Positions 8,382-59,956 of a DNA stretch of 64,000 nt are shown here, in pieces. The notes beneath the pieces were generated by a model that did no database searches, was not told the DNA's origin, and worked only from the letters and a program-made list of their open reading frames with translations. Within the stretch, counting starts at the first letter, position 1; every line of letters begins with the position of its first letter. The position numbers were made by a program, and so were the translations under genes. The DNA is from a virus (Duplodnaviria > Caudoviricetes), in the IMG/VR virus record IMGVR_UViG_3300036713_000599. One strand, given 5' to 3'.

Positions 8382-9947
8382 GTGGAACAACTTAACACCA
8401 TTATCTGTGGCATCACCCTCGAAGTACTAAAAACCCTCCCCGACAATTCTGTCGACGCTGTTGTGACCGACCCCCCTTATGGTCTCGGCCAAAGGAAGAT
8501 TTCGTCGGAACAGCTCGTTGGGTTCCTGCAGGGAGATGGTCTTGACACAGGGGGAGACTTTATGGGGGCTAAATGGGAGATTCCTTCTGTCCTCGTGTGG
8601 AAAGAAGTGTACCGAGTTTTGAAGCCCGGTGGTCACGTTTTGTCGTTTGGGGGAACGCGGACAATAGATCTCATTAGCTTGGGTCTTCGGGCAGCTGGTT
8701 TTGAATTTCGCGATTCGATTTTGAACATGTACGCTTGGTGTTATGGGTCAGGTATGCCAAAATCTGAGAACATTTCCAAGCGGATAGACAAAAGAGCGGG
8801 TGCTAAAAGGGAGGTTGTCGGTAAGAGCCCTTACGCGGCCCGTGCAAATAAGCACCCAAGAGCTATGTCTCCAGGCGACCTTCCCAGGAAGGTTGAAGAC
8901 ACGAGGGAGATCACAGCTCCTGCGACTCCCGAGGCTAAGCTTCACGAGGGTAAGGGTACGGGACTCAAGCCTTCTTTCGAGCCCGTCGTGCTTTTCCGCA
9001 AACCCTGTGAAGGCACCACTACGGACAATGTCTTGAAGTATGGGACAGGTGCTCTCAATATTGATGCGTGTCGAGTTAAGCATTCAAACAAGAAGGATTT
9101 TGAGAACCACAAGTCCCAGGTCGACGCGGTCAGAGCCAAGGGCGGAGTGCGGGACGGATCTTGGAAGAATGCTTCGGACCTTTCTGGGGCTAGTGAGGTG
9201 ACTTCGGCCGGTCGGTGGCCGCCGAACATGACGCTGACGCACCATCTAGATTGTCGGAAGGTTGGGAGTAGGAAGGTGGACGCTCCCGTCATTAATCGGT
9301 TTGATGACGGAGCCAAGCCTTTTGGTGGTGGGGCCGGCCACCAGTACACCTCGACGCAGACGGGTGATGCCGACGGGAAAGAAGACATCATTGTCTGGGA
9401 TTGCGTTGAGGGGTGCCCAGTCAGAGAACTGGATGAACAAAGTGGTGTACTGACTTCTGGTACAGGCGCTGTGAAGAAGGCTTCTGCGAGAGGGGGGAAA
9501 CGTCAAGGGGTTGTTTATGGGAAAGAGACTCGACCAGAAAACACGCCGAATATTGAGTATGTGGGTTCTGGTGGAGCTTCTCGCTTCTACGGCCAGTTCC
9601 AGGACTCCGGGGCACCCTTCCGGTACGTCACCAAACCTTCGGCCAAAGAGTACACCCTCAACGGGCAGATCGAGAATACGCATCCGACCAAAAAACCAAT
9701 AGATTTAATGCGTTGGCTCGTTAGGCTCGTATGTACCAAGGGAGGCACGGTTCTTGATCCTTATTGCGGGTCAGGGTCAACTCTTCACGCAGCCTGCGAG
9801 GAGGGCATGAACTACATCGGTATCGACAAGAACGAGACTGCTTGCAAGATTTCTCGTGATCGGATGAACATTGTCTCAGGTAGGGAGGAGGCACGTCGTG
9901 ACCAAATGGATGTTTTTGACCTTATGATGGGGCTAGACGATGAGTAA
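8382..9947 (+). CDS. N6-adenine/N4-cytosine DNA methyltransferase (beta class)
   Basis: VVTDPPY catalytic motif near the N-terminus; HPTKKP and VLDPYCGSGST SAM-binding motif near the C-terminus. Confidence 0.92.
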   Translation: MEQLNTIICGITLEVLKTLPDNSVDAVVTDPPYGLGQRKISSEQLVGFLQGDGLDTGGDFMGAKWEIPSVLVWKEVYRVLKPGGHVLSFGGTRTIDLISLGLRAAGFEFRDSILNMYAWCYGSGMPKSENISKRIDKRAGAKREVVGKSPYAARANKHPRAMSPGDLPRKVEDTREITAPATPEAKLHEGKGTGLKPSFEPVVLFRKPCEGTTTDNVLKYGTGALNIDACRVKHSNKKDFENHKSQVDAVRAKGGVRDGSWKNASDLSGASEVTSAGRWPPNMTLTHHLDCRKVGSRKVDAPVINRFDDGAKPFGGGAGHQYTSTQTGDADGKEDIIVWDCVEGCPVRELDEQSGVLTSGTGAVKKASARGGKRQGVVYGKETRPENTPNIEYVGSGGASRFYGQFQDSGAPFRYVTKPSAKEYTLNGQIENTHPTKKPIDLMRWLVRLVCTKGGTVLDPYCGSGSTLHAACEEGMNYIGIDKNETACKISRDRMNIVSGREEARRDQMDVFDLMMGLDDE

Positions 9948-26760: not shown

Positions 26761-29700
26761 ATGGAGATTGTCAAAACGCGTCAACTGTCTCAGGTCCGAC
26801 TCAGCGAGAATTTTCTCGCCCCTTATCGCCAGAAGGGGGATGTCTTCGAAACGTTGTTGGCAAGGTCAACGTATTTGACCAAGTACTCCAGAGATAAGGA
26901 GGGGCCGTTATCGCACGAGTGTTGGACAGATACAATCAAACGAGTCGTGGAAGGAAATGTTAATCTCGCCCCTGGTGTGAGCGTGGAGGAGGCTCAGTTA
27001 CTATTTCACTTATTCTGGACAGGACAGGCTATGCCTCCAGGCCGTGGCCTGTGGACGGGAGGGGTCGAAGGTATCCCTGCGGACGCTCGTTATAATTGCT
27101 GGTTCACAACTCTGCGGGACATTGATGACTGGTGTTGGACGGCTAACCAGCTTATGCTTGGAGGTGGTGTAGGTGTCGGCCTAACTGAGATCGATTCTCT
27201 GCCGACGGTTTCAGAGGGAAATGCTCGTTTCGCAGTATGGTGTCGGGACAACCACCCCAATCTCGGAGAAGTGGACCCTAACGGTCCTGAGTTCCTTAAT
27301 GGCCAGACTCCTGTATTTAAGTGCGAGGATTCCCGTGAAGGGTGGGTCGCATCTTTTCGGAATGTCTTGGACTCAGCTTTCCGCGGCCAGGACTTGATTG
27401 TCGACGTGTCCGAGGTTCGGCCCAGGGGTGAGCCGATTAAGACATTCGGCGGAACCGCCTGTGGTCCGGGCCCTCTTGTACATCTCCTTCGCTCTTCTTG
27501 GGATTATATCCGGCAGGCGAGAGGCCGCCGATTGTCGTCGGTAGAGGCCCTTGATATCACGAACCACGTTGGTTTGTGCATTAAGGCAGGAAATGTCCGT
27601 CGTTGTCTACCTGGGAACACTTTGGTACACACAGAGACAGGCCTTGTGCCTATTAGGGACGTCAAAGTAGGAGACAAGGTAGCTACTTCTGGGACTAGGA
27701 GTGAGCGTTACATGCCTGTGACAGCCCACATGGATCAGGGGAGGCAGCGGTTGGTGGAGATCGAGAACCAGATGGGTATTTTTCGGTGCACGGGTAACCA
27801 CCTAGTTGCTGTGATGACTGGCATCGGCACGTACGAGTTTAAAAAGGCTTCCGAACTGAAGCCTGGGTCGAGGATGGCTTTTGTTAACCATGACATCCCA
27901 GGAGATGTCACCGAACTCCCGTCTTGGGGGTATGACTGTTCTGAAGATTCAACCGCCTGTGCCGACATCTCGGTTCCAGAATTAACTTCAGAGGTTGCTT
28001 GGTTCTTGGGGTATTTTCTTGGGGGCGGTTACGTTAGAGCTGACCATAAAGAGAACGGGTTCAATGCTGAAGTGGTTATGGCTGTGGCTAACGACGTTGA
28101 TGCTGCGGCCATTGTGGATCGACTGGATTCTGTGTTCTCTGCTTTTGGTGTGAGCACTAGTAAGACTCATCCGAGTAGCTGTGATGACAGCTGGGAGGTT
28201 CGAGCCACGTCCAAACAGTTGGCTCGGTACTTCTGCGAGAACTTCAAACAACCGGAGACAGCCACTAAGGTGCCTGAATGCGTTCTTCGTGGCACTCTTA
28301 GAGTTCGGGCAGCATTTCTCGCGGGTGTCTTGGATTCAGGTGGTCACAACAATAAGCCTGTGGTTTTGTGTGCGTCTGTGTACCCCACTTTCTTGGAGGA
28401 GCTACAGTCTGTTTATGCCAGTATTGGAATCCCTACCAGGCTTAAGTTGAACCGTCCCGAAAAAGACACTTGGCAGCCGATGTGCCATTTAAGCCTCGTG
28501 GGGACAGAGGCCGTGAGCTTCTTCGGGGAAAAAGTCCAGTCTTTTGTTTTTCGTTCGAACAGCAAACAGGCGACAACCCACTTGTTTAGTAGGCTCGGAG
28601 GGGACACAAAGGGACTTTGTCCTATCGAGGTCCTAGAGGTTCGTGATTCTGAGATTTTTTCCGACACTTATGATATTGAGGTTGCCGGAGCTGAGGAGTT
28701 CGTGGCATCCGGTTTGCTCGTACACAATTCCGCTCTCATTACGTTAGGTCATATTTCTGACCAAGAATTCCGTGATGCGAAGAAGGACTCTGCTGCCGTG
28801 ATGAGCCATCGTCACACAAGCAACAACTCTGTAGCTTTCCAGGACTGGGATCAGCTTAATAATTTTGACTGGCGTGGGTTGGTGGCTGATAACATTGATT
28901 TCGGTGAACCAGGGATCTTGAATTTACCCCTTGGTCGTCAGACAGATCCTGGCGTAAAGGGTGTGAATCCGTGTTTCAGTGGGGACACTCGCATTGCTGT
29001 AGCTGATGGCCGTGATTCTGTTACCATCCAAGAACTCGCTGAGGCAGGGGTTGACGTTCCTGTTTATTCTGTGAGTCGCCAGACAGGCAAAGTGGAGATC
29101 AAGATGGGTCGCCATCCTCGCATTACTGGTTTTGGTAAGGAGTTGTTGCGTGTCTGGTTGGACGACGGTGGTTACTTGGACACCACACCTGACCATAGTT
29201 TCCTGCGGCTCGACGGCTCAAAGGTTAGTGCGTGTGACCTGGTACCTGGAGACAGCCTTCCCAGGTTCACTGCCACGGGAGAACATGTCCATTGTGATAC
29301 CCGGGATCCCTCTGTAGAGGCGACACCCAAGAGCCAACTAGTCGTCCCAGTTCTTCAAGAAGACAACGATTCTGCTTCGGTGACTAAAAAGTGTGAGGTG
29401 TGCGGGACCCTGTTCGAGACTCTCCGTGGGTTTAGGGAGAGATCTTTTTGTTCTGATACGTGTGTGAGCGCATACTCTAATCACGAAGACCGGCTCTCTG
29501 CTCCTAAGATCGAATCAGAGCAGGCACGTGTTTGTTCTGGTCTTATGTTTGAGTTAGGTCGAGACCCCAGCCATATCGAATGGTCTCATGCCTGTGCGGT
29601 CGAGGGTGTGGCTTACCACCTAGGCCTGGCTTCCAGTTTCCGACATTTTAGGGAGGTCCTTTCTGCAGGGGCTGCCTACAACCACCGTGTTGTAAAGGTG

Positions 29701-30696
29701 GAGAAACTTCCCGGAGAGCATACGGTCTACAATATAACGGTGGACGACCACCACACCGTGGCTGTGATCACTGAAAGTGCTCTTAAAAAGGACGGGGTTC
29801 ACCACACTGGAGTTTACGTAGCACAGTGTGGTGAACAACTTTTGCATGACCGTGAGGCGTGTAACTTGGCAGAAGTTTTCCCTGCCAAGTTTGGGGCGGG
29901 GACCGACCCTATCACTGTATTCCGGCTTGTGACTCGTTATTGTCTGAGGCAGCGCCTTACTCCACTTTCCGACGAGAGGAGTCATGCTGTAGGTAAACGT
30001 AATATGCGTGTGGGCGTGGGCCTTGGAGGTATTTGCGACTTTGAGTGGACCCCTGAGCTTCTCGCCAGGTGGTTCGGTGCATGTCGTCGTGAAGCTGATT
30101 CGTATGCTGAGGAGCTTGGTGTGAGCAAGCCCATAACAGTGACGACAGTTAAGCCTAGTGGTACCATTTCTTTGGTTAACAGTTCCAGTCCTGGTGTACA
30201 TGCTTCGCACTCTCCTTACTACATCCGTCGCGTTCGGATTGCGAAGAATGATCCAATGTCGGCTGCGATGGCAGAGGCTGGCGTAACCTTCGAAGAGGAC
30301 TTGTGCGACGAGACCCACAACACCTGGGTGTACTCCTTCCCCATGAAGGCGGACAATCCGAAGGTCACTAAGGAAAGTGAGACACTTCGTGATCAATTTG
30401 AGCGCCAGGCGACCATCCAGGAGTGGTGGGCAGACAACGCGGTGTCGAGTACCATAAACTTCGATGCTGAGACCGAAAGGGAGGAGCTTGCAGCATGTTT
30501 CGAGGAGTTCGTCCCTCGCCTTAAGTCTACTGCGGTACTTCCTAAAGGTCATGGGTACGTCCAGGCCCCATACGAAGCTATTGACGAGGCGACGTACAAG
30601 GAGATGGCTCGCGGCATCAATCACGACAGTAAACTTGTGGGCGGTGGGGATATCGAGGTGGAAGAATGTGAGGGAGGCGTGTGCCCAATACGCTGA
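26761..30696 (+). CDS. nrdJ: Class II (AdoCbl) ribonucleotide reductase NrdJ with two inteins (651 aa after splicing)
   Basis: MPPGRGLW, GEPIKTFGGTACGPGPL, GNVRR|SALI, NP|CGEQ, ACNLAEV, TTVKPSGTISL, C-terminal CEGGVCPIR. Confidence 0.93.
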   Translation: MEIVKTRQLSQVRLSENFLAPYRQKGDVFETLLARSTYLTKYSRDKEGPLSHECWTDTIKRVVEGNVNLAPGVSVEEAQLLFHLFWTGQAMPPGRGLWTGGVEGIPADARYNCWFTTLRDIDDWCWTANQLMLGGGVGVGLTEIDSLPTVSEGNARFAVWCRDNHPNLGEVDPNGPEFLNGQTPVFKCEDSREGWVASFRNVLDSAFRGQDLIVDVSEVRPRGEPIKTFGGTACGPGPLVHLLRSSWDYIRQARGRRLSSVEALDITNHVGLCIKAGNVRRCLPGNTLVHTETGLVPIRDVKVGDKVATSGTRSERYMPVTAHMDQGRQRLVEIENQMGIFRCTGNHLVAVMTGIGTYEFKKASELKPGSRMAFVNHDIPGDVTELPSWGYDCSEDSTACADISVPELTSEVAWFLGYFLGGGYVRADHKENGFNAEVVMAVANDVDAAAIVDRLDSVFSAFGVSTSKTHPSSCDDSWEVRATSKQLARYFCENFKQPETATKVPECVLRGTLRVRAAFLAGVLDSGGHNNKPVVLCASVYPTFLEELQSVYASIGIPTRLKLNRPEKDTWQPMCHLSLVGTEAVSFFGEKVQSFVFRSNSKQATTHLFSRLGGDTKGLCPIEVLEVRDSEIFSDTYDIEVAGAEEFVASGLLVHNSALITLGHISDQEFRDAKKDSAAVMSHRHTSNNSVAFQDWDQLNNFDWRGLVADNIDFGEPGILNLPLGRQTDPGVKGVNPCFSGDTRIAVADGRDSVTIQELAEAGVDVPVYSVSRQTGKVEIKMGRHPRITGFGKELLRVWLDDGGYLDTTPDHSFLRLDGSKVSACDLVPGDSLPRFTATGEHVHCDTRDPSVEATPKSQLVVPVLQEDNDSASVTKKCEVCGTLFETLRGFRERSFCSDTCVSAYSNHEDRLSAPKIESEQARVCSGLMFELGRDPSHIEWSHACAVEGVAYHLGLASSFRHFREVLSAGAAYNHRVVKVEKLPGEHTVYNITVDDHHTVAVITESALKKDGVHHTGVYVAQCGEQLLHDREACNLAEVFPAKFGAGTDPITVFRLVTRYCLRQRLTPLSDERSHAVGKRNMRVGVGLGGICDFEWTPELLARWFGACRREADSYAEELGVSKPITVTTVKPSGTISLVNSSSPGVHASHSPYYIRRVRIAKNDPMSAAMAEAGVTFEEDLCDETHNTWVYSFPMKADNPKVTKESETLRDQFERQATIQEWWADNAVSSTINFDAETEREELAACFEEFVPRLKSTAVLPKGHGYVQAPYEAIDEATYKEMARGINHDSKLVGGGDIEVEECEGGVCPIR
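27604..28728 (+). mobile_element. Intein 1 in NrdJ (375 aa) with degenerate LAGLIDADG domain
   Basis: Starts CLPGNTLV, ends GLLVHN, +1 Ser; motifs LGYFLGGG and FLAGVLDSGG. Confidence 0.92.
28972..29826 (+). mobile_element. Intein 2 in NrdJ (285 aa), non-canonical Ala-Gln C-terminus
   Basis: Starts CFSGDTRI; block F VYNITVDDHHT; ends VYVAQ; +1 is the catalytic Cys of NPCGE. Confidence 0.88.
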
Positions 30697-42756: not shown

Positions 42757-44016
42757 ATGAAAATTAAGGTGGAGAGTAAGACCCTCAATGAGGCCCTTGG
42801 GGTCGCTAGTCTGGTTCCGCCCACGACGATAGTTTCGTCGTCGAATTCAGCGTCTGGGCAAGGCTCTGGTTATCTTTTTGAGGTCAAGGACGGTAAGTGT
42901 TCCATCCATAGTCGCGACCAGACACACCGTGTGAAGGTCAACGTCCCTATCCTTGACGCTGAAGGAGACGGGCTCTTTATTTGCCCTTTGGCTATTGTGG
43001 GAGGGCTTAAGTACTTGGATGGTTGGATTGACATTGAGTTTGGTCACAACAAAGATGAGGATTTATATTGGCTGAAGTACACAACAGAAGGGGGAGCCAC
43101 CTCTGAGGTCTCGACCTTTGACCCTCGTTTAATGAAGACAATAGACGATGAGATCTCTGGTGACACCTACGAGGTTCCTTCTGCCATTCTTAAAGATGCT
43201 CTGGTGTGTGTCAACGCTCATGTTGCGACCGCGAACAACGACAGAGTGGGTGAGGTCTACAAGACGCTCCAGTTGTTTGATGCCTCACTTAGTGGCGGCG
43301 ATGGCACTATGTACGGGGCCGACAATATTCGAACATGTTACTACTACTCTCCTACCTTGTGTGGTAAGGTGTTCTCCATCAATACTCGCCATGTTGGTTT
43401 GGTGACTTCTTTCCTGTCCAAGTTCAACGGTTCGGCGATGAAGATCCATATGGGAGAGGCTGTTCGGTTTGTCGAAGCTCCGGATGGATCAGCAGTAGGG
43501 TGGGCCGGTTCAGTTGAGGAACATAAACGGTTTCGGTACTACGCGTACAAGAATGACAGGTATGTCCTGGCGATTCCCAAGACAGAGTTGGTCCGGGCTG
43601 TCAAACATGTGAGTGCGGGCAAGATCGAGAAGATTCGTGTCGAGTACAATCACGAGAACAGGTCTCTGCAGTTTCATGCTAGAGGTCCGAGTGGTTTGAT
43701 TTCCTCGACCCCTGTCGTCACTACCCCTCTTACCGAGGACGACGAAGAGTTTGGTGGCTTGGATGCTGATTCTAAGTCTTTCGGGGCCAACATTTCCACC
43801 GATCACATTAAGGGCATGATCGAACCTGTGAGAGGTCACCAGGTTATCCTTCGGGTGTTTATCATGCCGGAGAGTAAAAATCGCCGTGAGATGGCCCTTT
43901 TCAGGACGGTGGAGGAGTACCATCTCAACGACAACGGTAAGGAAGTCATTTCCGATGATGAAGGCGAGGAGGCCCACCTGTGTCGAGTAACGAGGTATGC
44001 TCCGTCGATGGGCTGA
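42757..44016 (+). CDS. Sliding clamp (DnaN beta-like)
   Basis: MKIKVESKTLNEAL resembles the DnaN N-terminus; 419 aa; repeated helix/sheet pattern; clamp-loader genes in the same block. Confidence 0.6.
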   Translation: MKIKVESKTLNEALGVASLVPPTTIVSSSNSASGQGSGYLFEVKDGKCSIHSRDQTHRVKVNVPILDAEGDGLFICPLAIVGGLKYLDGWIDIEFGHNKDEDLYWLKYTTEGGATSEVSTFDPRLMKTIDDEISGDTYEVPSAILKDALVCVNAHVATANNDRVGEVYKTLQLFDASLSGGDGTMYGADNIRTCYYYSPTLCGKVFSINTRHVGLVTSFLSKFNGSAMKIHMGEAVRFVEAPDGSAVGWAGSVEEHKRFRYYAYKNDRYVLAIPKTELVRAVKHVSAGKIEKIRVEYNHENRSLQFHARGPSGLISSTPVVTTPLTEDDEEFGGLDADSKSFGANISTDHIKGMIEPVRGHQVILRVFIMPESKNRREMALFRTVEEYHLNDNGKEVISDDEGEEAHLCRVTRYAPSMG

Positions 44017-47060: not shown

Positions 47061-48509
47061 GTGTGGGATATCAAGTACAGGCCCTTGACATTTGACGACG
47101 TTCTAGGACAGGACGGTTCCGTCCAGGTTCTTAGAAACCGTGTGAAGAAAGGCGTTGCCCTAGACACAAGCTACATCTTCTCGGGTGGTTTTGGTCAGGG
47201 GAAAACTACGATTTCTCGCATCCTGGGCCGTGCTTTGTTGTGCCAAGACCCTCAGGAGGACGGTAACCCTTGTAATCAGTGTGACAACTGCAGGGCTATT
47301 TTGAGTGAAGCTTCCAATGCTTTCTTTGAACTCGACGCTGCTAGCAAAGGCACTATCGACAACATCCGTAAAATCGTAGATGACTTAGCCTTCGCAGTCC
47401 CCGGCGCGCCTAAACGGGTTTACATATTCGATGAAATGCATCGCATGTCGCGGGACTCGCAGGATATTTTGCTTAAGCCTCTTGAGGACAGGCGTCTTGT
47501 GGGTATTTTCTGTACAACAGAGCCATCTAAGATTCGGAGCACCATTCGATCAAGATGTGAAGAGTACCCTATCCGACGTATCCCTCGTGAGGCCATTCTT
47601 GAGAGGATGCAGGAAGTCCTGAGGAAGGAGAACGTTGAATTTGAGGATGACGCTGTGCTTACTGTCATCGATTACAGTGACGGGCATGTGCGGGACATCT
47701 ATAACCGTCTGGAGATGGTCGCCCAGCTTGGTAAAATAGATCTACCTACTGTGCGTGAGTACCTGGACTTGTCTCTCGTTTCGAGGTATTATGAAATTCT
47801 ACTCCTTCTTGGAGAACCTTCAAAGGTGATCACTTTGGTGGAGTCGGCCTGTGACCGTGTAGGTGTGGACGATGTGGTTACGGGCCTTGCTGAAGCTGCC
47901 ATGAGTTCGTATCGGCTGGCTCATGGTATTTTTGCTGAGTTTAGTCACGTGGATAAGGATTTGGCGAAGCAGGTCTATTCTGTCTACGGTGACAACGTCG
48001 TGAGGCTTGCTGAATTCTTTCTTCGGCCGGCTCGCCCAACAAAGGTCGGGCTAGTATGTGACGTGGTGAGGTGTGCTGGAGGCGTCCCCGAGGCCACATC
48101 CCAACAGTCTACTGCCCCTCCAGTTGTAGTGGCCGCCCCTGCCGTTCAAGTACCCGTACCGCAACCCTCGCAGACACCTGGACAGCTTTCGGAGCCTCCG
48201 GCTAGCATTGAACCGTCTGTGGAGACAGAGAGACAGCATCAACCTAAAATAGAGGTTAAGCTCTCGCCACCGAAACCGAAACCGTGTGACGAGGTTGGCA
48301 ACCTTGGTTCGAGCGACCCTTGTGCCCTCACCGAGATCGATAAGCGAGTCATCCCGTCCGAGGGCCCTCGCGGCGCTAACGGTAATGTCGTCCAGAAGGT
48401 GCACTTATTTAAGGGCGCTAACGGATCGAGAATGGACGAAATCCTGCCTTCTGAACAATGGGCTCGTGAGTTTTCCCGGTACTTCTTCTCTCCTAGAAAT
48501 GGTGTTTAA
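47061..48509 (+). CDS. dnaX: DNA polymerase III gamma/tau subunit
   Basis: KYRPLTFDDVLGQ, GQGKTT, CNQCDNC, ELDAAS, IFDEMH, TIRSRC; Pro-rich linker. Confidence 0.93.
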   Translation: MWDIKYRPLTFDDVLGQDGSVQVLRNRVKKGVALDTSYIFSGGFGQGKTTISRILGRALLCQDPQEDGNPCNQCDNCRAILSEASNAFFELDAASKGTIDNIRKIVDDLAFAVPGAPKRVYIFDEMHRMSRDSQDILLKPLEDRRLVGIFCTTEPSKIRSTIRSRCEEYPIRRIPREAILERMQEVLRKENVEFEDDAVLTVIDYSDGHVRDIYNRLEMVAQLGKIDLPTVREYLDLSLVSRYYEILLLLGEPSKVITLVESACDRVGVDDVVTGLAEAAMSSYRLAHGIFAEFSHVDKDLAKQVYSVYGDNVVRLAEFFLRPARPTKVGLVCDVVRCAGGVPEATSQQSTAPPVVVAAPAVQVPVPQPSQTPGQLSEPPASIEPSVETERQHQPKIEVKLSPPKPKPCDEVGNLGSSDPCALTEIDKRVIPSEGPRGANGNVVQKVHLFKGANGSRMDEILPSEQWAREFSRYFFSPRNGV

Positions 48510-50315
48510 ATGCAGGAAGATTGGGTTGTCCTTGAGCTTTCGCCTCGAAGTGAGGGCGAGGATCCCGACATACTCAGTCGGGGTATTCGTAATTCTCTGA
48601 AGATCCGTGATGCTGAGGTTTTTGTTCCGGCGACTGTGACGCAGGTGGGCGAGGATAGAGCAGTTCACTACTTGGTGGAGGGCTATGTTTTTGTGCGGTA
48701 TACAGGGAACCCGACCCCATTTTTTCGCTCGGAGGGTACCCGTTATGTCCAGTCTGTGTTGCGGGACGGAGAGGGGCGACTATCGTTGGTCGCCAACTCC
48801 GAGATTTTGGGGATGCGGGAGAAGCTTTATCGCGAAGTAGATCAGGGTATTGGTATAGGGGACAGGGTACTGATCTGTTCAGGACCTTACCAGAACATTG
48901 AAGCCACGGTCATTGAAGATATTCCCGAGCAAGGGAAGGTCCAGGTCTATGTCAAACTGAGAAGCAAGCAAACGATTCTGACCTTGCCTCGTCCTTTCCT
49001 CCAGGTTGTAGAGAGAACCCCCCTTTCCGCTTATTTCAGCCGTCTTACGGCCCTTCGGGGTTGGACTCGGCAAGTTCGTCTTATTTTCAAGTGGCCTGCT
49101 GATCGAGACAAAGTTGTTCGTTGTGGTTGGGAGACTCTGGAACTTTTGGACAACTGGGACGATTTTAGTTCTAAGCGAATTGCCTTCATAAAATCTTTTC
49201 ACCGAGACACTCGTATGGCTCTTCTGCGAGACAAGTTGGGTAAATTGTCTCAGTTGGATGAGTGGGTTCGTAGGTCTAGTTCGAGATTTGTTTTCGTTCG
49301 AGCGTGTTGGCGCAATGACCTGGACAGGTGTGCTCGAACGGTCCAGGACAAGCTTGTGGAGCTGTGTTGGTTTGACGATGTGTTGGATCGGATTAATTCG
49401 CTTCAAAAAGAAGTAGAGGTTCTGGCGCATCGTGTCGCCAAGAGAAGGAAAGGTGGAGGCGTGAAGGTTATCCAGAATATTTTGGTCGACGGCCACAATC
49501 TCGCTCACAGATGTTTCCATGCTCCAGGGATATCTGAGCTGAGAGACGAACAAGGACGCCCTACAGGGGCTATTCTGGGTTTTTTGCGTTCCCTATGTGC
49601 TCTTCGGAAAAGATGTCCCGAAGCTCGCGTATATGTCGCTTGGGACGGTAGCTCGAAGCGAAGGAAGGCTATCTACGGAGAATACAAGGCTAACAGAAAA
49701 CCCCCCCTCGAAGGTTTTGTTGCACAGGTGGACTACCTCAGAGCTATTCTACCTTTTTGCGGGGTCTGGCAGGCGGACAGTCCTGACGAGGAGGCTGATG
49801 ACATTTTGGCAGCCTTGGTTCGAGGTCAGTTGAGAGATCAACATAACCTGTTGTTCTCTACGGACCGTGACTTGCTGTCGCTCGTCACAGAGACGACATC
49901 TATGCTCCTGCCCGGAGCAGGTAGTCGTAAGGATGTCGTGCACGGTCCGGCGTCTATCAAAAAATCTTTTGGGGTGGCTCCTTCGACTATTTTAGATTTT
50001 CGTGCATTTTGTGGGGACACTTCTGATAACCTTCCTGGCGTACCCAGAGTGCCTAAAAAGGTCCTGTGTTCTTTAGTTAAGGCCTACGGTTCGATCGATG
50101 GTGTTTACGGTTCAGGGTTGGCAGGGGTCAGTAAAGGGCAATATGAGAGGTTGCGTACAGCCGAACCTCAGGTCAGACTAAATAGGGAACTTATGTCCCT
50201 CATAAATGTCGAGGTTTTTGTGAGGGGCCCGAGTGCAGACGCAGAGAAGGCTGCTCAGCGGCTACGAGAGGTCAACATAGACCCGACCCCGCTCCTTGGG
50301 GTTCTTCTCGGGTGA
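48510..50315 (+). CDS. NusG (NGN+KOW) fused to 5'-3' exonuclease/flap endonuclease
   Basis: N: WVVL...VFVP...GYVFV and GDRVLICSGPY KOW; C: LVDGHNLAHR, AWDG, YKANR, EADD, STDRD, GDTSDNLPGV. Confidence 0.85.
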   Translation: MQEDWVVLELSPRSEGEDPDILSRGIRNSLKIRDAEVFVPATVTQVGEDRAVHYLVEGYVFVRYTGNPTPFFRSEGTRYVQSVLRDGEGRLSLVANSEILGMREKLYREVDQGIGIGDRVLICSGPYQNIEATVIEDIPEQGKVQVYVKLRSKQTILTLPRPFLQVVERTPLSAYFSRLTALRGWTRQVRLIFKWPADRDKVVRCGWETLELLDNWDDFSSKRIAFIKSFHRDTRMALLRDKLGKLSQLDEWVRRSSSRFVFVRACWRNDLDRCARTVQDKLVELCWFDDVLDRINSLQKEVEVLAHRVAKRRKGGGVKVIQNILVDGHNLAHRCFHAPGISELRDEQGRPTGAILGFLRSLCALRKRCPEARVYVAWDGSSKRRKAIYGEYKANRKPPLEGFVAQVDYLRAILPFCGVWQADSPDEEADDILAALVRGQLRDQHNLLFSTDRDLLSLVTETTSMLLPGAGSRKDVVHGPASIKKSFGVAPSTILDFRAFCGDTSDNLPGVPRVPKKVLCSLVKAYGSIDGVYGSGLAGVSKGQYERLRTAEPQVRLNRELMSLINVEVFVRGPSADAEKAAQRLREVNIDPTPLLGVLLG

Positions 50316-50333
50316 GAGGGTTGGGAGTGAACC

Positions 50334-51017
50334 ATGGAGTGCGGTATGGCTGCAGGATATATCATTCCCATTGACCCCAACGAGCTTGCAAATCGATTCC
50401 CGTCATACGACCCCCGTGAAGAAGAGGACGAGGACGAGATTCCTGAAGAGTGTCAGGTGTCTGCTGAGGATATGTTGGAATTTCTTGGGGTCGGTGATGA
50501 TTTTGGGGAGCGCGTGGTCCCGTTACTCGACCGAATCCCGGAGAGGGAGGCAGACCTGATCGACTTGTACTTTACCAGGAGAAAAAAGCAGGCAGACATT
50601 GCTATTATGTTCGGTATCACACAGGCGGCTGTGAGTTATCGACTGGATCGAGGTATCCAGCGAATTAAGTTCTTGTTATCCATTCCCGATGTAACAGAAG
50701 AAGACCTTCGGCGGGACTTGCCTGACATTTTTCCACTGAAGGCGAAAGAAACTCGAAATATTGATGTAGATATACTCGTCGGCATGTGGGAGACCACTTG
50801 TCAGTCTGAGGTTGCCGCACGATTAGAGTTGACTCAGGGTAGGGTTCGTCACAGATTTTTTAAGGCTGTCAAGGCCCTCGAAGAGGCAGCCGGGAAGGAC
50901 TCCAGGTTCTCCCCGTATTTTCAAATCTTTTCGGCAATAGCTGGAAAAAACTTTAATATACTCAAAGAGGTGAAGCTCCCTCAGTGGGTTAACCGCGGGA
51001 TAGACGAGTGTGTGTAG
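50334..51017 (+). CDS. Protein with two sigma70 region-4-like HTH modules
   Basis: IPEREADLIDLYF...QADIAIMFGITQAAVSYRLDR and QSEVAARLELTQGRVRHRFFKA. Confidence 0.75.
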   Translation: MECGMAAGYIIPIDPNELANRFPSYDPREEEDEDEIPEECQVSAEDMLEFLGVGDDFGERVVPLLDRIPEREADLIDLYFTRRKKQADIAIMFGITQAAVSYRLDRGIQRIKFLLSIPDVTEEDLRRDLPDIFPLKAKETRNIDVDILVGMWETTCQSEVAARLELTQGRVRHRFFKAVKALEEAAGKDSRFSPYFQIFSAIAGKNFNILKEVKLPQWVNRGIDECV

Positions 51018-51171
51018 TGCTTCGTGGTGGTGTGCAGGTCTAATTTCTTTATGGGCTCTCAAGGACACACGAAACAGTCTCTTCATAGAACTTTAGGTTG
51101 GGCCTTGCTTCCTAGTGGTATCCATTGGGATGGTTTTTACTTATACCCGTGGATAAGCGGAGATCAATACC

Positions 51172-56638: not shown

Positions 56639-59600
56639 GTGGTCGAAAAACGCAACAAGGGTGTAGCCTCGTTAGTTCGGACTGTCGGCCGTGAGGCTAA
56701 GCGGTCTCAGTCCAAGGTCGATTCGAGCGGGGCTCCCAAAATATTTTCGATTCTCGACTACATTGAGGCTCCTTGGGGAATTGGTATGAGCCTGTTCCCT
56801 GCCCAGAGGGTCATTGTTAAACTGTACTACAATTTGCCTCTTGACGAGAAATTACCTGAAGAGGACCATCGTCAGATTAAGATACGGGACATGTTCGGTG
56901 AGAAAGTTCTGTACACTCTCACTGAACGTGAGTACTTGACCTATTTGTATAACGAAGGTCGATGTAACATTGGTGAGCAGGACCACATGCGTCGAGAGTT
57001 GGTCCTTGCAGTCGGTCGCCGTAGCGGGAAATGTGTGTGCCATGATTCTTTGGTTTTGACGGACAAAGGGGTGTTCCAAATTGGTGATTTGGCTGAAGCT
57101 CATGAGGATGACTTTTCGTCATTTGATGTGGGAGTGGTCCAAGAGAAAAGTCGTCGAGCCAGGTCTACTCATTTCTATAATGGTGGCGTGAGGCCGATTT
57201 TTTGTGTGAAAAGCGAGTCTGGTTATTCTATTAAGGGTACAGGGAATCATCGCGTCCGAGTCATGTCCAAGTCAGGCCAGGTGGTGTGGAAGTACCTGGA
57301 CGACATCCGACCTGGTGACTATCTAGCGATCAACAGAACTACGGATCTGTGGGCCTCGGATCTTGTGGATCTTAGGCCATTCCATGACGTGGTTGGCTGC
57401 GAGGAATCGAGCCTGCCCGACCTTTTTGATGAAAAGTGGGGCCGCTTTTTTGGCTACTTGGTGGGTGACGGTAGCTGGAACTACAGTGAGAATCCTGAGA
57501 CACGAGAACGTCTCGGTGAGTTGTATGGTACCCTTTTCGGACTCCATTCGACCTGTACGGGTAAGGGGGTGGAGAATGCCAGGTGTGTTCGGTTTGACGG
57601 TGTGTACCAGTTCTTGGCTAGTCTTGGGTGGGTGGCTGGCTGTGAACGACATGCTAGGACGGTTCCTTGGGCAGTTCTTCGTTCTCCGAGGCATGTTGTG
57701 TGTGCCTTTCTGCGAGGGCTTTTTGAGACAGGCGGCTCAGTGGAGAGCGGGGGAAAACGTATTACATTTTCGACGGCTAGTTTTCGCCTAGTCCGTGAAG
57801 TACAGACCCTTCTTTTGAATCTAGGGATTGTTTGCAGTAGGCGGGTTCGTGAGACTGGTGGGTATCGTGCCGTCCTGAGTGTAAAAGGTTTGAGGTCGCG
57901 GCAACGGTTCGCTAAGTTTGTTGGATTTGACTCTAAGAAGAAACAAGACTTGTTGCTCGAAGCTCTTGAGTGCGCCCAGGAAGGGAATCCAGGTACTGTT
58001 GTGCCTCACCAGCACACAAGAGCCCGGGATTTACTGAATTCAGTCCCACGACTTGAGGGCAACAAGTCGTGCAGACGTCGCCATCTTCGACAAGCCCTCG
58101 GTAGTGTGATTGAGCCTGGTTCGGGTGGAGGCTCGACCTACTCTCGGATGTACGCAGTTGTCGAGGTAGCTAAAGAGCAGGGCGCTGGGAGGCGGGAGAT
58201 TGCCCATTTCGAAGAACTGCTTCATCAAGACTATTTTTTCGATCCTGTGGTATCCGTCGAAGAAGGGGAGGATCAGGTATACGATTTGGTTGTACCTGAC
58301 GGGAAGTCTTTTGTGGCAAATGGTCTAACCAACCACAACACAGCCCTTTCCGGTATTTTCGCAAGTTACGAGGTCTACAGGCTACTCAACTTGTACAACC
58401 CTCAGGAGTACTTTGGGCTGCCGAACGGTAACCGTATTCAGCTTATCAGTATTGCTACGGATAAGGACCAGGCAGGGTTGTTGTTCAATGAAGTGACTAG
58501 CCACATAGCGAAATGTGACTATTTTGCTCCCTACCTTGCGAGTAATACACAGGGTTGGGTAAACTTTCGTACACCGTACGACATCGAGAAATACGGCCCA
58601 AATATTCGACAGGAGGACGGTAAGTTTGTATCCCTCAACGGGAAAGCGTCTTTAAGGGTCACGTTCAAATCTTGTATCGCTAAAGGGCTTCGTGGATCGG
58701 GCAACATTGTCATTATTCTCGATGAGGTCGCCCATTTTCTAGACAAGGGCGGTAGCTCTGCAAAAGAGATCTACGAAGCGGTGACACCCTCGAAGGCTGC
58801 TTTTTCTAGGAAGGACCCCAAAACTAAACGTGCGTGGGTCGATCCAGATACAGGCGAGGTGGCCCCTGTTGAGTCCCGAGTTATTTTGATCTCTAGCCCG
58901 CTCGGCAAGTCAGGTAAATTTTACGAGAAGTTCCAACAGGCTATGGGTGGAGGTGAGGGTTCAGAAAATATTCTCGCCATCCAGGCCCCCACTTGGGAGG
59001 TCAACCCTACCGTTCCTTCGAGCGCCTTTCGGGAGGCGTATCACGCTGACCCTCATACGTATGCTACTGAATATGGGGCTAATTTCAGTGATCAGTCTGT
59101 TGGGTGGATTGAGCGGCAGGGAGATCTTCTGGCGTGTGTTGATCCCGAAAGAAGGCCTCTTTTGCGGGGGCGCCCTAGGGCACCTCATCAGATGGGTATC
59201 GATGTTGGGCTTGTGGACGACGGCACTGCTGTCGTCATTACTCATATTGAAGACGACAAGGTTGTCCTCGACTATCACGAGATATGGTATGCGGGAAAGG
59301 ATTGGCGGGAAACAAATCCGCATTTGGGTTCGAACTTTACGACGGATTATGCTAAGACTCTCAGTGACGTGGAGCGTTTGGACTTCGACGCCATTGCTGA
59401 CTGGATCTCTACCCTGTGTTCTCGTTTCCATATCACAGCTGGACTATTCGATCGGTGGAACGGTATTCCACTTGAGCAGACATTGCATAAGCGAGGACTT
59501 AAGCAATTTAATGCCCAATTCTTTACCAGAGACGCCACCTCTAAGCTTTTTCAGACGACCAAACTCATGATGTTTGACGAATGTTTGGATTTTTATGACT

Positions 59601-59956
59601 ATCCTGTCCCGGAGACAGGCCCCGAAGACGAACGGCACTCGGGCCTTATTCGAGAGCTTTTCTCTCTCCAGTCTAAGCAGATCAGTAAGAATGTTGTCGT
59701 CGTGGAGGCCCCGAAGCGGCGTGGGGCACACGATGACATGAGCGATGCTTTAGTCAGAAGTATTTGGTTGAGTGTGGAGGCCATGCTTAACTCCAAGCAT
59801 GCCTCTAGGGGACGTTCCAGTACGAATCGACTTCGTACTGTTTCTGCCATGACTCCGTCAAGATATCAAGCGATTAGGTCGAGACGTCGCGGTAGAGGAG
59901 ATCGTGTAGCTCCGACACCTCGATCGTTTGTCAGGGGAGGTTTTCGTGGCACATAA
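56639..59956 (+). CDS. terL: Terminase large subunit with intein (669 aa after splicing)
   Basis: Walker A VGRRSGK|T, Walker B IILDEVAHF, ISSP coupling motif, nuclease GIDVG and HDDMSDA. Confidence 0.92.
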   Translation: MVEKRNKGVASLVRTVGREAKRSQSKVDSSGAPKIFSILDYIEAPWGIGMSLFPAQRVIVKLYYNLPLDEKLPEEDHRQIKIRDMFGEKVLYTLTEREYLTYLYNEGRCNIGEQDHMRRELVLAVGRRSGKCVCHDSLVLTDKGVFQIGDLAEAHEDDFSSFDVGVVQEKSRRARSTHFYNGGVRPIFCVKSESGYSIKGTGNHRVRVMSKSGQVVWKYLDDIRPGDYLAINRTTDLWASDLVDLRPFHDVVGCEESSLPDLFDEKWGRFFGYLVGDGSWNYSENPETRERLGELYGTLFGLHSTCTGKGVENARCVRFDGVYQFLASLGWVAGCERHARTVPWAVLRSPRHVVCAFLRGLFETGGSVESGGKRITFSTASFRLVREVQTLLLNLGIVCSRRVRETGGYRAVLSVKGLRSRQRFAKFVGFDSKKKQDLLLEALECAQEGNPGTVVPHQHTRARDLLNSVPRLEGNKSCRRRHLRQALGSVIEPGSGGGSTYSRMYAVVEVAKEQGAGRREIAHFEELLHQDYFFDPVVSVEEGEDQVYDLVVPDGKSFVANGLTNHNTALSGIFASYEVYRLLNLYNPQEYFGLPNGNRIQLISIATDKDQAGLLFNEVTSHIAKCDYFAPYLASNTQGWVNFRTPYDIEKYGPNIRQEDGKFVSLNGKASLRVTFKSCIAKGLRGSGNIVIILDEVAHFLDKGGSSAKEIYEAVTPSKAAFSRKDPKTKRAWVDPDTGEVAPVESRVILISSPLGKSGKFYEKFQQAMGGGEGSENILAIQAPTWEVNPTVPSSAFREAYHADPHTYATEYGANFSDQSVGWIERQGDLLACVDPERRPLLRGRPRAPHQMGIDVGLVDDGTAVVITHIEDDKVVLDYHEIWYAGKDWRETNPHLGSNFTTDYAKTLSDVERLDFDAIADWISTLCSRFHITAGLFDRWNGIPLEQTLHKRGLKQFNAQFFTRDATSKLFQTTKLMMFDECLDFYDYPVPETGPEDERHSGLIRELFSLQSKQISKNVVVVEAPKRRGAHDDMSDALVRSIWLSVEAMLNSKHASRGRSSTNRLRTVSAMTPSRYQAIRSRRRGRGDRVAPTPRSFVRGGFRGT
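57032..58339 (+). mobile_element. Intein in TerL Walker A (436 aa, LAGLIDADG)
   Basis: Starts CVCHDSLV, ends NGLTNHN, +1 Thr; FGYLVGDG and FLRGLFETGG. Confidence 0.92.

What the first reader, a model, noticed from the sequence alone, without database searches (positions are those of the whole stretch)
48510..50315. NusG fused in frame to a 5'-3' exonuclease/RNase H-like FEN
Seen: one 601-aa frame with NGN and KOW at the N-terminus, a helical linker of about 150 aa, and a complete PolA-type 5'-nuclease (acidic active-site residues present). Known: NusG rides elongating RNAP, while FEN/T4 RNase H removes RNA primers and flaps. Inference: nuclease delivered to transcription complexes, for example to clear R-loops, handle transcription-derived primers or couple late transcription to replication. 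An internal GTG at about 49461 might also give the nuclease alone.
Basis: partly seen in the sequence, partly recalled or inferred. Interest (0 to 1): 0.7.

Follow-up and report, generated by a model that had tools for sequence, protein, structure and literature searches.

The report
Huge-phage NusG fused to flap nuclease
A giant sediment phage joins a copy of the RNA-polymerase-riding factor NusG to its only DNA flap nuclease in one gene. The gene probably also makes the free nuclease from a conserved internal start, so it gives a testable physical link between transcription and DNA replication that I found in no paper.

Summary
ORF 48510-50315 (601 aa) encodes a divergent NusG-type NGN+KOW module, a four-helix linker of about 145 aa with no relatives, and an intact PolA-type FEN with all its acidic residues invariant.

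It is not an assembly error. Contigs of three runs cover it with no differences. At least 53 clusters at 50% identity carry the fusion, on huge-phage contigs of up to 475 kb.

The scan has already reported this family on other DNA (e1-5376835, e1-5401117, e1-5368228). I found no paper on it.

New here:
1. The fusion is derived. Distant relatives keep NusG-like and FEN as adjacent, overlapping genes without a linker, and two lineages inside the fused clade have split again.
2. 32 of 33 fused genes keep an in-frame ATG/GTG/TTG at the FEN boundary (here GTG 49461). Its Shine-Dalgarno pairing and open mRNA match real gene starts, so the gene probably also makes a free 284-aa FEN.
3. The slot is constant: clamp loader, NusG-like, (FEN), sigma-r4 protein. 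One relative fuses a sigma factor to the same module.
4. The FEN ends in a conserved PIP-like tail, and the phage encodes its own DnaN-type clamp.

RNA polymerase binding and the nuclease's substrate at the polymerase remain inferences.

The parts
48510..50315 (+). Full NusG-linker-FEN ORF, 601 aa. Its ATG directly abuts the clamp-loader stop (TAAATG).
   Evidence: full-length relatives
48510..48839 (+). NGN domain (about aa 1-110). N-terminal W-V-V-L strand; invariant G58, Y59 and F61, aligned to the NusG 'PGYVFV' strand.
48846..49019 (+). KOW domain (about aa 113-170). The most conserved part of the protein, 68% mean identity to relatives.
49020..49460 (+). Four-helix linker (aa 171-317). 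Variable (27% mean identity) with roughly one recurrent Trp per helix (only W185 is near-invariant). No detectable relatives.
49440..49459 (+). Purine-rich SD-like tract inside the coding frame, upstream of the internal GTG. Anti-SD duplex -10.8 kcal/mol.
49461..50315 (+). Predicted second product: free FEN of 284 aa, starting at the in-frame GTG 49461 (V318).
   Evidence: inference, no protein data
49479..49970 (+). FEN catalytic domain (PF02739, aa 324-487).
49974..50201 (+). FEN H3TH/SAM-fold DNA-binding domain (PF01367, aa 489-564).
50271..50312 (+). C-terminal docking-type tail (aa 588-601, here ...NIDPTPLLGVLLG). Family consensus I-N-P-x-x-[IL]-L-x-x-F-F-G.
47061..48509 (+). Clamp loader (DnaX-like AAA+), the constant upstream neighbour.
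50334..51017 (+). Sigma-like protein with region-4 HTHs and no region 2, the constant downstream neighbour.
42757..44016 (+). Phage DnaN-type sliding clamp (419 aa), candidate partner of the FEN tail.
51110..51130 (+). Terminator-like hairpin after the sigma-like gene; possible end of the operon.
   Evidence: consensus match only

Best explanation
This is one gene with probably two products, in a conserved phage cassette: clamp loader, NusG-like, FEN, sigma-r4 protein.

The full-length 601-aa protein joins a divergent NusG-superfamily NGN+KOW module to the phage's only flap nuclease through a four-helix spacer of about 145 aa. The NGN domain is expected to sit on the beta' clamp helices and beta gate loop of the host RNA polymerase, which these phages reprogram with their own sigma factors. 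The full-length form would then hold an active 5' nuclease at transcribing polymerase on phage DNA. There it would meet the substrates that FENs cut: 5' flaps, nicks, and the RNA of RNA-DNA hybrids (primers, R-loops) where transcription meets replication and recombination intermediates. A conserved C-terminal PIP-like tail gives the FEN end a second handle for a replisome partner, with the phage's own DnaN clamp as first candidate.

A conserved internal ribosome-binding site and start codon at the linker/FEN boundary (GTG 49461) most likely also yields a free 284-aa FEN for ordinary primer removal.

Shown: the architecture, conservation, derived status of the fusion, the internal-start signals, and that this is the only FEN and only NGN in the genomes checked. 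Inferred: RNA polymerase binding, two protein products, the substrate, and the tail's partner.
For: Architecture and family.

Conservation: more than 100 full-length relatives at 45-70% identity; 33 distinct fused loci in IMG/VR; 53 of the best 150 cluster representatives carry NGN-KOW and FEN in one chain.

No error.

Derived fusion: linker-less two-gene forms with overlapping stop and start in L045, L047 and L048, L055/56 and L057. In the FEN tree the linker-less clade (93/91) is sister to the linker clade (92/95), with splits L040+L041 (98/97) and L036 nested inside it.

Internal start: an NTG lies 6-14 codons before the catalytic Asp in 32 of 33 fused genes (ATG in 24), against 48% and 12% of background windows. 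Among the 19 of those loci where the 'QN' motif was recognised, the homologous codon is ATG 10, GTG 5, TTG 2; the two exceptions have GTG two codons upstream, while GTG is only 32% of Val codons. Anti-SD pairing has median -5.9 against -6.2 at 172 real starts (p 0.47) and -3.1 in the matched control (p 2e-7). Local mRNA folding is -6.5 against -8.8 at true starts and -11.7 at other internal NTG codons. Split relatives start their FEN at this same place.

Link to RNA polymerase: all NGN domains contact beta' clamp helices and the beta gate loop (review PMC7819879). A sigma-70 r2+r4 protein is fused to this same NGN-KOW module (P0184). A sigma-r4 gene is always next door. Region-2 sigma hits (two over Pfam's cut-off) occur in 4 of 5 relatives, and no beta' subunit was found in four genomes 94-100% complete.

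Only FEN, only NGN, no RNase HI. The PolA has no 5' nuclease of its own.

Tail and clamp. The PIP-box definition and the C-terminal PIP of FEN-1 are from PMC3012046.
Against: There is no direct evidence that the NGN binds any RNA polymerase, and the host is unknown. The module scores far below every curated NusG, RfaH, LoaP and UpxY cut-off.

The ancestral state is two separate genes. Two lineages reverted to two genes. Two sampled lineages have no FEN between the NusG-like gene and the sigma-r4 gene. So the halves can work apart, and the fusion may only serve co-expression.

Gene order is shared by descent in related phages, so it is weak evidence of function.

The internal-start statistics count related sequences as independent and assume a canonical anti-SD. 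A Met or Val there could partly be a relic of the old FEN N-terminus.

The tail lacks the Gln of a PIP box and is not a canonical beta-clamp motif. No other ORF of the record shares it.

The Pfam search for DnaN missed the phage's real clamp. The negative search for a phage RNA polymerase is therefore weak too.
Confidence: 0.5

Rival explanations
1. Passenger fusion. The NusG-like part is a phage transcription elongation or antitermination factor that works with the neighbouring sigma-r4 protein. The FEN is the replication primer-removal nuclease. They are joined only because they were adjacent, translationally coupled genes, and the nuclease does nothing at RNA polymerase.
For: The two-gene state is ancestral and widespread. 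Two secondary fissions are tolerated. Some lineages have NusG-like and sigma-r4 with no FEN. The internal start would supply free FEN regardless. The linker is poorly conserved (27%).
Against: The fusion, with a spacer gained at the same time, persists through at least 53 clusters at 50% identity and down to 36% identity, with only two reversions. The linker keeps its length, its four helices and recurrent Trp residues. A stop codon upstream of a working internal start would be an easy mutation, yet it is rare.
Confidence: 0.28
2. Replication-coupled late transcription device, analogous to T4 gp55/gp33/gp45. The NGN holds RNA polymerase, the FEN with its C-terminal tail holds the sliding clamp or a nick or flap on replicating DNA, and the sigma-r4 protein holds the beta flap and promoter. 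Late genes are then read only from replicating phage DNA.
For: The order is constant: clamp loader, NusG-like, (FEN), sigma-r4, lying just before the late or structural genes. The phage has its own clamp. The FEN tail is PIP-like and conserved. A sigma factor is fused to the same module in P0184. Precedents: T4 (PMC2988020, PMC7892883) and Mu with the beta clamp (PMC12867686), titles and abstracts seen.
Against: There is no evidence for tail-clamp binding. The tail is not a canonical beta-clamp motif. Lineages without FEN keep the rest of the cassette. Gene order may be inherited rather than functional. FEN catalytic residues are invariant, which a mere adaptor would not need.
Confidence: 0.14
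3. The NGN-KOW module does not bind RNA polymerase. It serves as a nucleic-acid-, ribosome- or replisome-binding domain of the nuclease.
For: It is very divergent from curated NusG families. KOW domains also occur in ribosomal proteins (weak uL24 hits).
Against: The whole two-domain NusG layout and its signature strands are kept. The module is fused to a sigma factor in P0184 and always sits next to a sigma-r4 gene.
Confidence: 0.07
4. Artefact: an assembly or sequencing error joined two genes.
For: A few relatives have two frames. In L040 the break lies at an A7 run.
Against: Contigs of three runs show 0 differences. Dozens of independent assemblies keep the same open frame.
Confidence: 0.01

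Closest known systems
Specialised NusG paralogues (RfaH, LoaP, UpxY, ActX/TaA) and housekeeping NusG/Spt5
   Same: A two-domain NGN+KOW layout, signature strands and fold. It is encoded by a mobile element next to the genes it probably serves. NGN domains bind the beta' clamp helices (PMC7819879).
   Different: It falls below all curated family cut-offs. The KOW is followed by a covalently attached enzyme, whereas known paralogues recruit partners non-covalently. No recruitment site of the ops type is known here.
T4 RNase H, T5 D15 FEN and the 5' nuclease domain of bacterial Pol I; stand-alone phage FENs such as SPO1 gp32.85
   Same: The same Pfam domains and metal-binding acidic residues, 36% identity to SPO1-group FENs, and the role of sole primer- and flap-removing nuclease. 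T4 RNase H also has handles for the clamp and SSB (PMC3012046).
   Different: About 320 extra N-terminal residues of transcription-factor origin. No cultivated phage in GenBank matches at full length.
T4 late transcription (gp55 + gp33 + gp45 clamp) and the phage Mu late activator working with the beta clamp
   Same: Transcription factors of a phage are tied to the replication clamp. Here the genes for the clamp loader, an RNA-polymerase-binding factor and a partial sigma are contiguous.
   Different: The proteins are unrelated (NusG-type, not gp55). A nuclease lies in between, and clamp binding is not shown.
Genes with an internal in-frame start that give two products (T7 gene 4A/4B, from my own knowledge)
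   Same: A conserved in-frame start codon with SD and open mRNA at a domain boundary.
   Different: Here the two products would differ by a whole RNA-polymerase-targeting module. No protein data exist.
Torpedo 5'-3' exonucleases on RNA polymerase (Xrn2/Rat1, RNase J1; from my own knowledge)
   Same: The idea of a 5'-3' nuclease working at a transcription complex.
   Different: Those enzymes are unrelated folds that degrade single-stranded RNA. PolA-type FENs act on flaps and duplex or hybrid ends, so a torpedo role is unlikely.

Membership tests
NusG/Spt5 superfamily | NGN domain fold and sequence profile | tested here: met
   Family profile against the PDB: NusG 2lq8 at E 2.9e-9 over both domains. 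Foldseek probability 1.0 to NusG, RfaH and Spt5. 28 of 36 members hit PF02357 at E up to 1, best E 1.2e-5.
NusG/Spt5 superfamily | KOW domain after the NGN | tested here: met
   34 of 36 members hit PF00467 (best E 2.4e-6). The model has a five-strand barrel at 119-168. Match to the NusG C-terminal domain 2mi6, TM 0.80.
NusG/Spt5 superfamily | Binding to RNA polymerase clamp helices and gate loop | not testable with these tools
   The host is unknown. Only the signature strand (G58, Y59, F61) is seen conserved.
Housekeeping NusG (TIGR00922), RfaH (TIGR01955), LoaP (NF033641), UpxY (NF033644) | Score above the curated cut-off | tested here: not met
   28.4 bits against 135.7 for nusG; 20.1 against 144.5 for RfaH; 17.9 against 125 for LoaP; 22.9 against 100 for UpxY.
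PolA-type 5'-3' exonuclease / FEN | PF02739 and PF01367 above gathering score | tested here: met
   110.9 bits (cut-off 34.3) and 52.2 bits (cut-off 40).
PolA-type 5'-3' exonuclease / FEN | Metal-binding acidic residues | tested here: met
   D327, D379, E428, D430, D431, D452, D454, D503 and D506 are invariant in 36 sequences. Their mapping to catalytic roles comes from knowledge of the family.
PolA-type 5'-3' exonuclease / FEN | Flap and 5'-exonuclease activity | not testable with these tools
   Needs an enzyme assay.
Clamp-binding tail (PIP box Qxxhxxaa, as defined in PMC3012046) | Terminal motif with Gln, an aliphatic residue and two aromatic residues | tested here: inconclusive
   The 'hxxaa' half is present in 91 of 120 members, within the last 15 residues in 90 of them, but Gln is replaced by P/D/N. 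In this window the two aromatics are Leu-Leu.
Dual-product gene with internal translation start | Conserved in-frame start codon with SD and open mRNA | tested here: met
Dual-product gene with internal translation start | Two polypeptides observed | not testable with these tools
   No proteomic or ribosome-profiling data.

The most novel reading that the evidence does not exclude
The full-length protein is a physical bridge between RNA polymerase and the replisome. The NGN sits on RNA polymerase. The FEN and its tail sit on the phage sliding clamp at nicks and flaps. Together with the neighbouring region-4-only sigma protein this forms a NusG-based counterpart of T4's clamp-activated late transcription, and the nuclease licenses transcription only on replicating DNA.
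Probability: 0.14. Interest if true: 0.85.

Novelty: new variant of a known kind. Interest (0 to 1): 0.62.

Why it matters
NusG is the only transcription factor conserved in all life, and it is known to work by recruiting partners non-covalently. A natural NusG-family module welded to an active DNA-replication nuclease would be the first case of an enzyme covalently targeted to RNA polymerase by this route.

It offers a direct handle on how large phages manage the meeting of transcription with replication and recombination: R-loops, RNA primers, flaps and late-gene timing.

Nature has already provided the controls. The family comes as two genes, as a fused gene, and as re-split genes. The internal start gives a clean genetic way to separate the tethered enzyme from the free one.

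The module may also be useful as a portable tag for directing proteins to RNA polymerase.

Tried and rejected
- Complex prediction of the phage clamp (A4) with the FEN C-terminal tail (A5) gave no answer, score 0.00. It counts neither for nor against binding.
- The look-up of sequencing runs listed no RNA holder, so nothing can be said on expression.
- Pfam on the single sequence left NGN and KOW below cut-off. A family profile and a fold were needed.
- The linker has no relatives. The PDB profile gave only coiled-coil noise, Pfam gave nothing, and the Atlas gave TM 0.43 or less.
- hhalign of the linker against the unknown C-terminal extension of P0196 found them unrelated, probability 0.4%.
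- A scan of all ORFs of the 241-kb record for the tail motif found no other bearer.
- PF00712 did not find the phage's clamp, although a profile and a fold show it is one. Negative Pfam scans of these phages (RNA polymerase beta', T7-type polymerase, RNase H) are therefore weak. The PF00940 control rang nowhere.
- The 'shorter' search with residues 1-178 gave only one truncated protein. Split forms came from loci and from the exhaustive profile search instead.
- Sigma-70-type promoter and terminator scans around the gene were near the chance level.
- Five literature searches found no description of the fusion, and one further search call was rejected on syntax.
- A torpedo role on nascent RNA was considered and set aside, because PolA-type FENs are not single-stranded RNA exonucleases.
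- The idea that the NGN replaces sigma region 2 was weakened by region-2 sigma genes in relatives.
Full report
OBSERVATION.
The window lies in a 241-kb IMG/VR virus record estimated about 50% complete. It is a huge phage from sediment metagenomes. ORF 48510-50315 (+) is open for 601 codons.

The C-terminal half is an unambiguous PolA-type 5' nuclease: PF02739 at residues 324-487 with 110.9 bits and PF01367 at 489-564 with 52.2 bits. Nine acidic residues of the metal sites are invariant in 36 relatives.

On the single sequence the N-terminal NGN and KOW matches are below Pfam's cut-offs, so I tested them separately:
- A profile of residues 1-178 from 36 relatives hits solved NusG structures across both domains (2lq8, E 2.9e-9).
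- 34 and 28 of the 36 members hit KOW and NusG in Pfam.
- All 36 hit the nusG equivalog model over nearly its full length.
- An AlphaFold model of residues 1-318 has block pLDDT mostly 87-97 over NGN and KOW, with dips to 73 and about 80.
- Foldseek returns only NusG, RfaH and Spt5 chains at probability 1.0.

Between KOW and FEN lie four long helices, residues 171-314. They have no detectable relatives.

NOT AN ERROR.
Contigs assembled independently by Logan from three runs of two studies cover 48400-50400 without a single difference or gap at 20-36x depth. The samples may be the source of this record, so this tests the assembly and not the biology.

The stronger argument is conservation:
- More than 100 full-length relatives at 45-70% identity.
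- 33 distinct fused loci in IMG/VR, down to 36% identity, several on terminally repeated genomes of 412-452 kb.
- 53 of the best 150 representatives of 50%-identity clusters in an exhaustive profile search carry NGN-KOW and FEN in one chain.
- No cultivated phage in GenBank matches beyond the FEN half.

THE SCAN HAS SEEN THIS BEFORE.
Three earlier follow-ups on other genomes (e1-5376835, e1-5401117, e1-5368228) describe the same family and reach the same core reading. I re-derived that reading independently here and agree with it. Five literature searches and the NusG review PMC7819879 give no description of such a fusion.

CONTEXT.
The gene is the second-to-last gene of a + strand replication and repair block. 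The block holds an RNR with an intein, an NAD-dependent ligase, a RecD2-type helicase, a RuvC-like protein, RecA, Rad50/Mre11-like proteins, a PD-(D/E)XK nuclease, a clamp, a primase, a metallopeptidase and a clamp loader.

Its ATG abuts the clamp-loader stop codon (TAAATG). Eighteen bases after its own stop begins a sigma-like gene with region-4 HTHs and no region 2. Then come a terminator-like hairpin and unannotated ORFs leading to a portal gene.

This order is kept in about 47 related loci. ORF 42757-44016 is a DnaN-type sliding clamp: profile against the PDB 4.8e-7, model pLDDT 90.6, and Foldseek 1.5e-17 with TM 0.69-0.75.

The record and four relatives 94-100% complete have exactly one FEN and one NGN each, both in this gene. 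They have no RNase HI and no detectable beta' subunit. The record itself holds a family-A polymerase without a 5' nuclease. Region-2 sigma hits, two of them over Pfam's cut-off, occur elsewhere in four of five relatives. These phages therefore redirect a bacterial-type RNA polymerase, the enzyme that NGN domains bind (PMC7819879).

One caution applies to the negative scans. The Pfam scan for DnaN missed the real clamp, so the other negative scans are weak evidence.

NEW POINT 1: THE FUSION IS DERIVED, AND THE PARTNERSHIP IS OLDER THAN THE FUSION.
In the most distant relatives the NGN-KOW protein (about 165-230 aa, no linker) and the FEN are separate genes with overlapping or abutting stop and start. 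This holds in L045, L047 and L048, L055/56 and L057.

A maximum-likelihood tree of the FEN domains was rooted on FEN-only outgroups, which are long branches, so caution is needed. It places the linker-less two-gene clade (93/91) as sister to a clade holding all linker-bearing forms (92/95). Within the latter, fused L044 is basal, and two split lineages are nested: L040+L041 (98/97) and L036. The most economical history is adjacent genes, then one fusion that also gained the linker, then two fissions.

- L036 is a clean two-gene form with an ATGA overlap.
- L040 breaks at an A7 run and could be an indel, but its sister L041 is split as well.
- Two sampled lineages have the sigma-r4 gene directly after the NusG-like gene with no FEN (L059 and L060).

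The constant core is therefore clamp loader, NusG-like, sigma-r4, and the FEN is a frequent insert. One representative, P0184, is a sigma-70 region 2 + region 4 protein with this same NGN-KOW module at its C-terminus (143 bits), on a phage-like contig. That is a second, independent fusion tying the module to sigma-dependent transcription.

NEW POINT 2: A CONSERVED INTERNAL START.
Among 117 family proteins, the position two residues before the FEN's 'QN' motif is Val (53) or Met (41), with a few Thr, Ala or Ser, and never Leu or Ile. The background Met frequency is 1.7%.

At the DNA level:
- 32 of 33 distinct fused genes have an in-frame ATG, GTG or TTG 6-14 codons before the catalytic Asp (ATG in 24). 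Same-size windows elsewhere in the same genes have one in 48% (any NTG) and 12% (ATG) of cases.
- Among the 19 of those loci where the 'QN' motif was recognised, the homologous codon is ATG (10), GTG (5) or TTG (2). The two exceptions, this window and L002, have GTG two codons upstream. GTG is only 32% of Val codons and TTG 24% of Leu codons in these genes.
- Pairing of the upstream 15 nt with a canonical anti-SD has median -5.9 kcal/mol. That is the same as at 172 real gene starts of the same loci (-6.2, p 0.47), and far stronger than a matched control (-3.1, p 2e-7).
- The mRNA from -30 to +20 is as open as at real starts: -6.5 against -8.8, and -11.7 for other internal NTG codons.
- The split relatives start their FEN genes at this very place.
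- In this window the codon is GTG 49461 (V318), behind the purine tract 49440-49459, with a duplex energy of -10.8.

Two caveats apply. The sequences are related, so the p-values overstate the case. The signal could also be in part a relic of the former gene start. Even so, retention across 36-70% identity in an otherwise variable junction, with switches among the three start codons, argues for selection. I put 0.7 on a free 284-aa FEN being made alongside the full-length protein.

NEW POINT 3: A DOCKING-TYPE TAIL.
After a poorly conserved stretch, the family ends in I-N-P-x-x-[IL]-L-x-x-F-F-G. The strict form occurs in 91 of 120 members, within the last 15 residues in 90 of them. Here it reads ...NIDPTPLLGVLLG.

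The tail is kept by the separate FEN genes of the split forms and, more weakly, by the linker-less clade. It therefore belongs to the FEN and predates the fusion.

It matches the 'hxxaa' half of the PIP box that FEN-1 uses for its clamp (PMC3012046), but it lacks the Gln. A complex prediction with the phage clamp gave no answer (reported only as tried). The partner remains open.

MECHANISM.
I commit to the following, at 0.5 overall. The full-length protein rides the host RNA polymerase through its NGN domain and holds the phage's only FEN at transcribing complexes on phage DNA. The free FEN from the internal start does routine primer removal.

The likeliest substrates at the polymerase are the ones FENs cut: 5' flaps, nicks and the RNA of RNA-DNA hybrids (T4 RNase H, PMC3012046). 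These abound in a phage that replicates with RecA, RecD2, Mre11/Rad50 and a RuvC-like protein and has no RNase HI.

The main rival (0.28) is that the fusion only fixes co-expression of two neighbours that work apart. A more novel variant (0.14) is a T4-like device in which the FEN and its tail hold the clamp at nicks, and so bring RNA polymerase to replicating DNA together with the region-4-only sigma protein. The precedents are PMC2988020, PMC7892883 and PMC12867686.

An error is excluded. A torpedo role on free RNA is unlikely for this enzyme class.

VERDICT.
The feature is real and conserved, and I found it described in no paper I could search, although the scan has already flagged it in other genomes. 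It is a new variant of known kinds: a NusG paralogue carrying a covalent enzyme payload.

Noticed in passing
L054:3612-5237 (protein P0184): A 541-aa protein joining sigma-70 regions 2 and 4 to the same phage-type NGN-KOW module at its C-terminus. It lies on an 18-kb phage-like contig with a helicase and Ku. A sigma-NusG fusion is itself unusual, because sigma region 2 and NGN bind the same site on RNA polymerase.
   Followed up: partly
window 8382-9947 (+): A 521-aa ORF ends in ...QMDVFDLMMGLDDE. This looks like a canonical beta-clamp-binding motif (QxxLF type) followed by an acidic tail. It may be a client of the phage clamp. Its family was not determined.
   Followed up: no
L040:3660-3700: The NusG-linker/FEN split in this relative lies at an A7 run (GCAGAAAAAAATG). 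It could be a sequencing indel, a real fission or a slippery site. Its sister L041 is also split.
   Followed up: partly
L060:3501-4721 (P0196) and P0201, P0209, P0257, P0266: NGN-KOW proteins of 383-406 aa sit in the same slot between clamp loader and sigma-r4. They have a C-terminal extension of about 230 aa that matches neither the linker here, nor FEN, nor any Pfam family. It may be another payload on the same module.
   Followed up: partly
window 50334-51017 (+): The sigma-like protein has region-4-type HTHs, an acidic N-terminus and no region 2.
   Followed up: partly
window 26761-30696 and 56639-59956 (+); G000:C1:235294-237849: There is intein and LAGLIDADG content in the class II RNR and in a 1105-aa ORF. 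The family-A DNA polymerase frame (1395 aa) has its Pfam match broken in two, which suggests another insertion.
   Followed up: no
L055:2856-4004: An RRXRR-domain gene (HNH-like mobile endonuclease type) is inserted between the clamp loader and the NusG-like gene in one relative.
   Followed up: no
window 42757-44016 (+): The phage clamp is DnaN-type by profile and fold, yet the Pfam DNA_pol3_beta scan of the genome does not see it. This is a warning about negative Pfam scans in these phages.
   Followed up: yes
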